In this document: positions 27,518 to 27,555 of the stretch, piece after piece | Position numbering within the stretch: the first letter of the stretch is position 1 | How the letters are laid out: every line of letters starts with the position of its first letter | Assembly: GCF_963506605.1 (NCBI RefSeq) | Contig: NC_083285.1 | Coordinates: 67,766,001 to 67,830,000, forward strand | Direction: 5' to 3' | Source of the DNA: Zootoca vivipara | Lineage: Eukaryota | Length of the DNA: 64,000 nt | Program-made: the position numbers and the translations under genes | Notes under the pieces: generated by a model | The model's input: the letters and a program-made list of their open reading frames with translations, nothing else | What the model was told of the DNA's origin: nothing | Database searches by the model: none

Positions 27518-27555
27518 GTATCTGAAGAAGCGTGCATGCACACGAAAGCTCATAC
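27518..27555 (+). ncRNA. Minimal type I hammerhead ribozyme motif in a Penelope-like fragment (27518-27600)
   Basis: GTAT-CTGAAGA-aGCGTGC at GCACAC-GAAA-GCTC-ATAC. Confidence 0.72.

What the first reader, a model, noticed from the sequence alone, without database searches (positions are those of the whole stretch)
27518..27555. Minimal hammerhead ribozyme in a Penelope-like remnant inside CPA2 intron 9
Seen: stem I GTAT/ATAC, core CTGAAGA, stem II G(C)GTGC-at-GCACAC, GAAA, then the palindromic AGCT in place of a stable stem III, with a predicted UC cleavage site at ~27551. Known: Penelope-like elements carry such minimal type I hammerheads, which work mainly as dimers. Four family copies occur here (13608, 27518, 57301, ~62500). 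Inference: this copy has the most complete catalytic architecture.
Basis: partly seen in the sequence, partly recalled or inferred. Interest (0 to 1): 0.7.

Follow-up and report, generated by a model that had tools for sequence, protein, structure and literature searches.

The report
Hammerhead ribozyme in a retrotransposon scrap
This is an ordinary leftover of a very abundant Penelope-type jumping gene, one of over 13,000 near-identical copies of a known minimal self-cutting RNA motif; it faces away from the host gene and carries a stem mismatch, so it is likely inert.

Summary
The motif is real, at the stated coordinates. A full minimal-hammerhead descriptor finds it once in the window and in 0 of 200 shuffles. 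It sits in a 114-bp terminal-repeat remnant (27490-27603) of a young Penelope-like element (PLE). The genome holds 13,219 exact copies of the 38-nt family motif, and ~3,030-bp tandem units with an intact RT + GIY-YIG frame and the motif in both repeats. Across the family the free core base 7 is changed 1,872 times and the essential A6 62 times. An older family shows compensatory stem changes. The carboxypeptidase gene runs on the minus strand, so this copy is antisense and absent from the pre-mRNA. And its C27531 breaks stem II, so it is best of six local halves yet worse than the family norm. It is a new member of the known metazoan PLE minimal hammerheads; a turtle homologue is published. 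This scan already noted the family elsewhere in this genome (e1-9556134). Cleavage was not tested.

The parts
27490..27603 (+). 5'-truncated remnant of the pseudo-LTR/leader of a Penelope-like element (114 bp, no coding sequence)
   Evidence: aligns from 27490 to the L004-type subfamily with one mismatch over the 76 nt tested; 95% identical to the intact unit in L062 over 99 nt
27518..27521 (+). stem I, 5' strand
27522..27529 (+). core C3-A9 (CUGAAGA) plus the extra nucleotide between 9 and 10.1 typical of PLE minimal hammerheads
   Evidence: PMC4209133
27530..27543 (+). stem II; a perfect 14-nt palindrome in the family, here broken by C27531 opposite A27542
27544..27551 (+). GAAA core, self-complementary AGCU in place of helix III, and C17; cut predicted 3' of 27551
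   Evidence: hammerhead numbering as in PMC4209133
27552..27555 (+). stem I, 3' strand
27597..27740 (+). 3' end of another repeat with an (ATT)n tail, joined to the PLE remnant over a short shared AT-rich stretch; 'L2-like' is a recalled label
   Evidence: Pfam gave no family for related frames
27156..29480 (-). intron 9 of the CPA2-like gene; the motif lies about 360 nt from its 3' splice site, on the opposite strand
27071..27155 (-). CPA2-like exon 10 (85 bp)
29481..29683 (-). CPA2-like exon 9; best solved-structure match carboxypeptidase A2 (E 7e-33, against 6e-28 for A1)
13510..13648 (-). family copy of an older subfamily, with C3 changed to U; sense strand of intron 1 of the next carboxypeptidase gene
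57251..57421 (.). inverted pair of family remnants: the minus half has the core but only 2 bp of stem I; the plus half lacks the 5' core and has GAAA changed
62419..62628 (.). inverted pair of family remnants: the plus half has G8 changed to A; the minus half lacks the 5' core

Best explanation
The motif is a minimal type I hammerhead inside a 114-bp remnant of a young, abundant Penelope-like retrotransposon, and this copy is likely an inert passenger because it lies antisense to the host gene and has a mismatch in stem II. Shown: in intact elements the same motif sits in each terminal repeat, 188 nt after the stop codon of one unit and 137 nt before the ATG of the next. Inferred: in source elements it likely cuts only with help, either as a dimer (two AGCU strands forming helix III) or aided by the element's protein. 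Cuts at successive repeats would release one unit of RNA from a tandem transcript, which may be rejoined into a circle and copied more than once around. Short remnants like this one would come from reverse transcription that starts just downstream of the motif and stops early, on RNA whose cut site is intact.
For: Identity: 13,219 exact 38-nt family motifs, reversed control 0. Of 12 stretches picked for long frames, 9 hold the motif twice, 2,966-3,031 bp apart, and 11 hold a frame of 925-951 codons. The 901-aa protein has RVT_1 (E 4e-12) and GIY-YIG (E 6e-5), both over the Pfam cut-off. Constraint on source elements: base 7 changed in 1,872 copies against A6 in 62; base 17 changed in 546, of which the first 100 listed are 93 U, 4 A, 3 G. 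An older family in the same genome, and the published turtle motif, swap one pair in stem I and one in stem II while keeping the pairing. Inertness here: gene on the minus strand. C27531 occurs in only 64 copies, none with the compensating base, spread over several subfamilies, so it is a change after insertion. Stem II drops from -4.1 to -1.3 kcal/mol. Unit copying: the two units within one insertion differ at 0-1 of 700 nt in 9 of 10 elements, against 1-9 between separate loci, and both units of L071 share a 23-nt deletion. Uncut template: 0 of 95 copies picked by a downstream anchor begin at the cut site.
Against: No cleavage was tested, and RNA-seq shows no pile of read ends at the cut site (fragmented libraries, about 6% of each run read, so little power). 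The base 7 and base 17 excesses probably stem from a few source lineages plus CpG decay, so they are not thousands of independent events. The covariation rests on 10 rows, two pair swaps and one old-versus-young split; pairs with a change on both sides do not exceed shuffles (459 of 500). In the anole Poseidon element, ribozyme mutants did not affect insertion in vitro (PMC11167929), so the role in transposition is open. Identical tandem units could also come from an already homogenised tandem source. Rfam does not recognise the motif.
Confidence: 0.88

Rival explanations
1. This copy has been taken over by the host and acts on CPA2-like RNA, by cutting the pre-mRNA or an antisense transcript.
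For: It lies about 360 nt from a 3' splice site and keeps every core base. Conserved intronic hammerheads exist in amniotes (recalled; a human motif is shown in PMC4209133 Fig. S1).
Against: The motif is on the strand opposite the pre-mRNA. It carries a destabilising change and belongs to a young family. Two RNA runs gave zero depth on the unique flank 27340-27435, and only 3 of 1,145 and 2 of 308 reads at 27531 did not show the family T (tissue unknown, so weak).
Confidence: 0.03
2. The family motif is a fold that the element's protein binds, or a 5' leader element; cutting is slow or incidental and not needed for transposition.
For: 0 of 95 copies start at the cut site, while 17 of 95 start within 3 nt of the first base of stem I. 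The anole element's ribozyme needs protein to cut, and its mutants still insert in vitro (PMC11167929). Minimal hammerheads cut poorly even as dimers (PMC4209133). Ribozyme cutting can drive cap-independent translation in other systems (PMC13725137, passages).
Against: Changes carried by source elements fall on the bases that catalysis leaves free (7 and 17), as expected for a working ribozyme. Identical units within insertions fit a unit-length circular template that cutting and rejoining would make.
Confidence: 0.3
3. The perfectly palindromic stem II is a second pairing module that brings two RNA copies together.
For: Cofolding two family motifs pairs stem II between molecules (14-mer self-duplex -25.2 kcal/mol, against -2.5 for AGCU). 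The palindrome is kept in subfamilies that differ downstream.
Against: A short-looped hairpin is near-palindromic by nature. The first loop base is changed in 181 copies, three times the A6 baseline, and several inverted pairs share a loop change, so such templates moved. The older family and the turtle motif have non-palindromic loops. A stem II swap does not supply helix III.
Confidence: 0.07
4. A chance look-alike of a hammerhead.
For: The bare core pattern is at chance level, there is no Rfam match, and folding stability is unremarkable.
Against: The full descriptor hits 0 of 200 shuffles. The motif has a fixed place in a PLE repeat, a homologue in a published turtle PLE-type motif, and variation at free bases.
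Confidence: 0.01

Closest known systems
Minimal type I hammerheads of metazoan Penelope-like elements (Cervera and de la Pena 2014, PMC4209133), notably the painted-turtle motif of Fig. S3
   Same: CUGANGA + one extra base + G10.1-C11.1 + GAAA + palindromic 15.2/16.2 + UH; short stem I; place in the terminal repeats; mostly solo copies. The turtle motif shares the core, the A-GC-U helix III substitute and similar flanks.
   Different: Compensatory swaps in stems I and II; stem II here is a 14-nt perfect palindrome. 13,219 exact copies, against about 4,000 and 9,000 motifs in all families of coelacanth and Xenopus in that paper. Lizards are not among the reptiles named in the parts read (turtle, snakes).
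Poseidon PLE of the green anole and its hammerhead (Frangieh et al. 2024, PMC11167929)
   Same: Squamate-type PLE in partial tandems, hammerhead at the repeat/ORF junction, internal start of reverse transcription giving an optional 3' tail (49 of 95 copies here carry the tail), and no RNA-seq ends at the cut site.
   Different: There the ORF starts inside stem II; here the ATG is 103 nt after the cut site. The protein here has the extra Cys-rich linker of Neptune/Nematis that Poseidon lacks.
Neptune/Nematis clades of endonuclease-bearing PLEs (PMC8557442, passages)
   Same: [quoted passage not shown]
   Different: No tree was built, so Neptune versus Nematis is not resolved here.
Non-LTR retrozymes (bioRxiv 10.64898/2026.07.22.740005)
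   Same: The family has thrown off a 598-bp tandem array with one motif per unit (L133).
   Different: The copy in question is a solo 114-bp remnant, and its ribozyme is of the minimal, not the canonical, type.

Membership tests
Minimal type I hammerhead of PLEs | CUGANGA and GAAA core with UH cut site, in type I order | tested here: met
Minimal type I hammerhead of PLEs | Extra base between positions 9 and 10.1, and G10.1-C11.1 pair | tested here: met
   A27529; G27530-C27543; features listed in PMC4209133
Minimal type I hammerhead of PLEs | No stable helix III; palindromic 15.2-16.2 | tested here: met
   AGCU at 27547-27550; self-duplex only -2.5 kcal/mol
Minimal type I hammerhead of PLEs | Long, fully paired helix II | tested here: inconclusive
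   met by the family form; this copy has a C.A mismatch at the second pair
Minimal type I hammerhead of PLEs | Compensatory changes in helices I and II among relatives | tested here: met
   two pairs change on both sides between young and old families and in turtle; few independent events
Minimal type I hammerhead of PLEs | Lies in both terminal repeats of an RT + GIY-YIG element | tested here: met
   9 of 12 fetched stretches hold two motifs one unit apart; Pfam
Minimal type I hammerhead of PLEs | Self-cleavage as a dimer or with protein help | not testable with these tools
   RNA-seq showed no ends at the site but cannot test this
Neptune/Nematis PLE | CX2-5CxxC linker before a C-terminal GIY-YIG with internal CxxC | tested here: met
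   cysteines at 761, 766, 769 and at 805, 808 of the 901-aa protein; definition in PMC8557442
Neptune/Nematis PLE | RT phylogeny placing it in Neptune | not tested
   no reference PLE proteins were fetched
Rfam hammerhead families | Covariance-model match | tested here: not met
   no hammerhead among 60 matches at E up to 10
Host-co-opted intronic ribozyme | Sense orientation in the host pre-mRNA | tested here: not met
   gene on minus, motif on plus

The most novel reading that the evidence does not exclude
The family, not this copy, is a still-mobile Neptune-type element whose hammerhead forms the very first 38 nt of its transcript and cuts tandem RNA into unit-length circles that are reverse transcribed more than once around. 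That would make it a ready vertebrate model, with intact elements and tens of thousands of natural variants, for the open question of what PLE hammerheads do.
Probability: 0.3. Interest if true: 0.5.

Novelty: new member of a known kind. Interest (0 to 1): 0.2.

Why it matters
The copy itself matters little: it is one antisense, slightly damaged remnant among thousands. The family matters modestly. It gives intact, near-identical elements and countable evidence that source elements keep the catalytic core while free bases drift. It also shows that inserts never start at the cut site in the sample (0 of 95) and that tandem units within an insertion are near-identical. These bear on whether PLE hammerheads make circular templates, which in vitro work on the anole element left open.

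Tried and rejected
Rfam scan: no hammerhead match; its miRNA hits at 57258-57403 and 62429-62577 are below the gathering scores and reflect the inverted pairs. Bare core pattern and single-strand folding: at chance level. Compensated form of this copy's stem II change: 0 of 64. Search for other stem II types: of 201 matches, the 100 listed were nearly all point mutants of the main family; a tighter pattern gave 5 copies of an older family. None of 6 such loci had a tblastn match to the ORF at E 1e-3, so their link to a PLE rests on the similar downstream flank only. Run search: no RNA holder listed among indexed runs. Three raw RNA runs of the same species label were laid instead; most reads run on into unlike sequence (44-90%), that is, solo remnants inside host transcripts, and the 5' and central ORF is thinly covered. 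DNA contigs could not show whether this insertion is polymorphic. A first count of 5' ends was confounded by subfamily differences and was redone with gapped alignment to nine references; 5 of the 100 places collapsed as duplicates there, leaving 95. A TATA box about 28 nt upstream of stem I was considered but not tested; Drosophila Penelope has a TATA-less internal promoter (PMC2377424, abstract). Selection on the palindromic loop II: not supported. Literature searches listed no paper on this lizard family's hammerhead; Repbase/Dfam and subscription journals were not searchable, and the preprint's supplements were not seen.

Full report
Observation. The bare core pattern is at chance level (3 found, 5.4 expected), Rfam reports no hammerhead, and the 38-mer is not unusually stable (z 0.53). 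A full minimal-hammerhead descriptor finds this site alone in the window and nothing in 200 dinucleotide shuffles.

The family. A DNA search of the own genome gave 962 candidates, of which 40 were scored; two of 30 loci showed GIY-YIG-type frames ending upstream of the motif on the same strand, and a third showed one elsewhere in the locus. A protein search with a 100-aa piece of such a frame gave 3,745 candidates, 150 scored. I fetched 12 stretches chosen for long frames or tandem spacing. Nine hold the motif twice, 2,966-3,031 bp apart, and 11 hold a frame of 925-951 codons. The 901-aa protein matches RVT_1 and GIY-YIG over the Pfam cut-offs. It has the CX2-5CxxC linker that marks Neptune/Nematis rather than Poseidon (PMC8557442, passages); no tree was built. 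The motif starts 188 nt after the stop codon and 137 nt before the next ATG. The genome holds 13,219 exact copies of the 38-nt family motif and 19,292 of a 31-mer just downstream. The host looks like a lizard (repeat types recalled; an earlier scan note says so).

Is the family motif under constraint? With all else matching, base 7, which hammerheads leave free, is changed in 1,872 copies, and the neighbouring essential A6 in 62. Base 17 is changed in 546, and the first 100 listed are 93 U, 4 A and 3 G. These excesses likely trace to a few source lineages and CpG decay, so they are a pattern, not thousands of events. Five copies of an older family keep the core. Aligned with four window copies and one intact unit, two pairs change on both sides, one in each stem. 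The covariation score is reached by 11 of 500 shuffles, but the count of such pairs by 459 of 500, and relatedness is not controlled. The published painted-turtle motif (PMC4209133 Fig. S3, PDF text with the GAAA column printed apart) shows the same two swaps. Of 52 copies in loci picked through the protein, 48 match the family motif exactly.

This copy. The remnant runs from 27490 to about 27603 and differs from the L004-type subfamily at one of the 76 upstream positions tested, C27531. That change occurs in 64 copies, none compensated, across several subfamilies, so it arose after insertion. It weakens stem II from -4.1 to -1.3 kcal/mol and shifts the lowest-energy fold away from the hammerhead, which the family form does adopt. 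The carboxypeptidase exons lie on the minus strand; exons 8 and 9 match CPA2 best. The motif is thus in intron 9 (27156-29480) but antisense, and is not part of the pre-mRNA. Among the six halves in the window it is the most complete. The 13510-13648 copy has U3, one half at 57.3 kb has 2 bp of stem I, one at 62.5 kb has A8, and two lack the 5' core. Two RNA runs gave no depth on the unique flank, and 5 of 1,453 reads at 27531 did not show the family T. The tissue is unknown and about 6% of each run was read, so this is weak.

How it likely works. Shown: position in the repeats, tandem units, core constraint. Inferred from PMC4209133 (main text parts 1-2 of 4, supplement parts 1-2 of 3 read): with no helix III the monomer does not cut, and two AGCU strands form the helix in a dimer, with low activity in vitro. 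From PMC11167929 (parts 1-2 of 4 read): the anole Poseidon ribozyme cuts only with the element's protein, and uncut RNA is the main template. My data fit both. Of 95 copies picked by the downstream anchor (the first 100 on contig 1, 5 collapsed as duplicates), 0 begin at the cut site and 17 begin within 3 nt of the first base of stem I; 57 begin further upstream, 20 inside the motif and 1 downstream of the cut. The pile-up at the motif's first base agrees with the earlier scan note e1-9556134, which reads it as the transcription start; stalling of reverse transcription at the stem is an alternative, and 9 of the 17 are arms of inverted pairs. Within 9 of 10 tandem insertions the two units differ at 0-1 of 700 nt. 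The tenth (L067) aligned poorly; its upstream unit appears to be shorter than 700 nt. Separate loci differ at 1-9, and both units of L071 share a 23-nt deletion. That fits repeated copying of one unit-length template, such as a circle made by cutting and rejoining, but a homogenised tandem source would look the same. Three RNA runs showed no pile of ends at the cut site.

Comparison and verdict. This is a new member of the minimal hammerheads of metazoan PLEs, closest to the turtle motif. It fails the test for a host-co-opted intronic ribozyme (wrong strand). Other papers seen: bioRxiv 10.64898/2026.07.22.740005 (passages and Discussion; supplements not seen), PMC13725137 (passages), PMC2377424 (abstract and one results section). 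Five literature searches listed no paper on this family's ribozyme, but repeat databases were not searchable. Interest 0.2: an ordinary copy of a known kind of motif, in a family that would be a good test system.

Noticed in passing
L133:820-3242 (G000:C1 about 2,777,300-2,779,740): Four tandem 598-bp units, 99% or more identical to the intact element, each made of the terminal repeat plus the two ends of the ORF with one hammerhead per unit: a retrozyme-like, internally deleted derivative.
   Followed up: partly
L061-L068, L071, L134: Partial-tandem elements with near-identical units inside each insertion, most with an intact frame; the family looks very recently active.
   Followed up: yes
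window 57251-57421 and 62419-62628: Head-to-head inverted pairs of remnants forming long hairpins; the form is common (23 of 95 sampled copies have an inverted arm within 160 nt) and causes spurious miRNA hits in Rfam.
   Followed up: partly
window 13510-13648 (-): The only family copy seen in the sense strand of a carboxypeptidase intron (intron 1 of the next gene, exon 1 near 15500) has the core C3 changed to U. It is a single case and no evidence of selection.
   Followed up: partly
L110, L135-L139: An older, decayed hammerhead family with turtle-like stems I and II in the same genome.
   Followed up: partly
L062:6497 to 3656 (RNA run X21): 35 reads from about 20 starts join across a 188-nt gap in the ORF at a 5-nt microhomology, not at splice sites: probably a transcribed deleted copy.
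   Followed up: partly
window 45895-46329 (-): Exon matching Pfam DUF4636 (E 8.7e-12), upstream of the carboxypeptidase cluster; SSMEM1 by recalled gene order.
   Followed up: no
window 16206-16352, 38056-38330, 46406-46680, 21608-21692 and similar: Several other hairpin-forming repeats with long inverted arms, probably non-autonomous DNA transposons.
   Followed up: no
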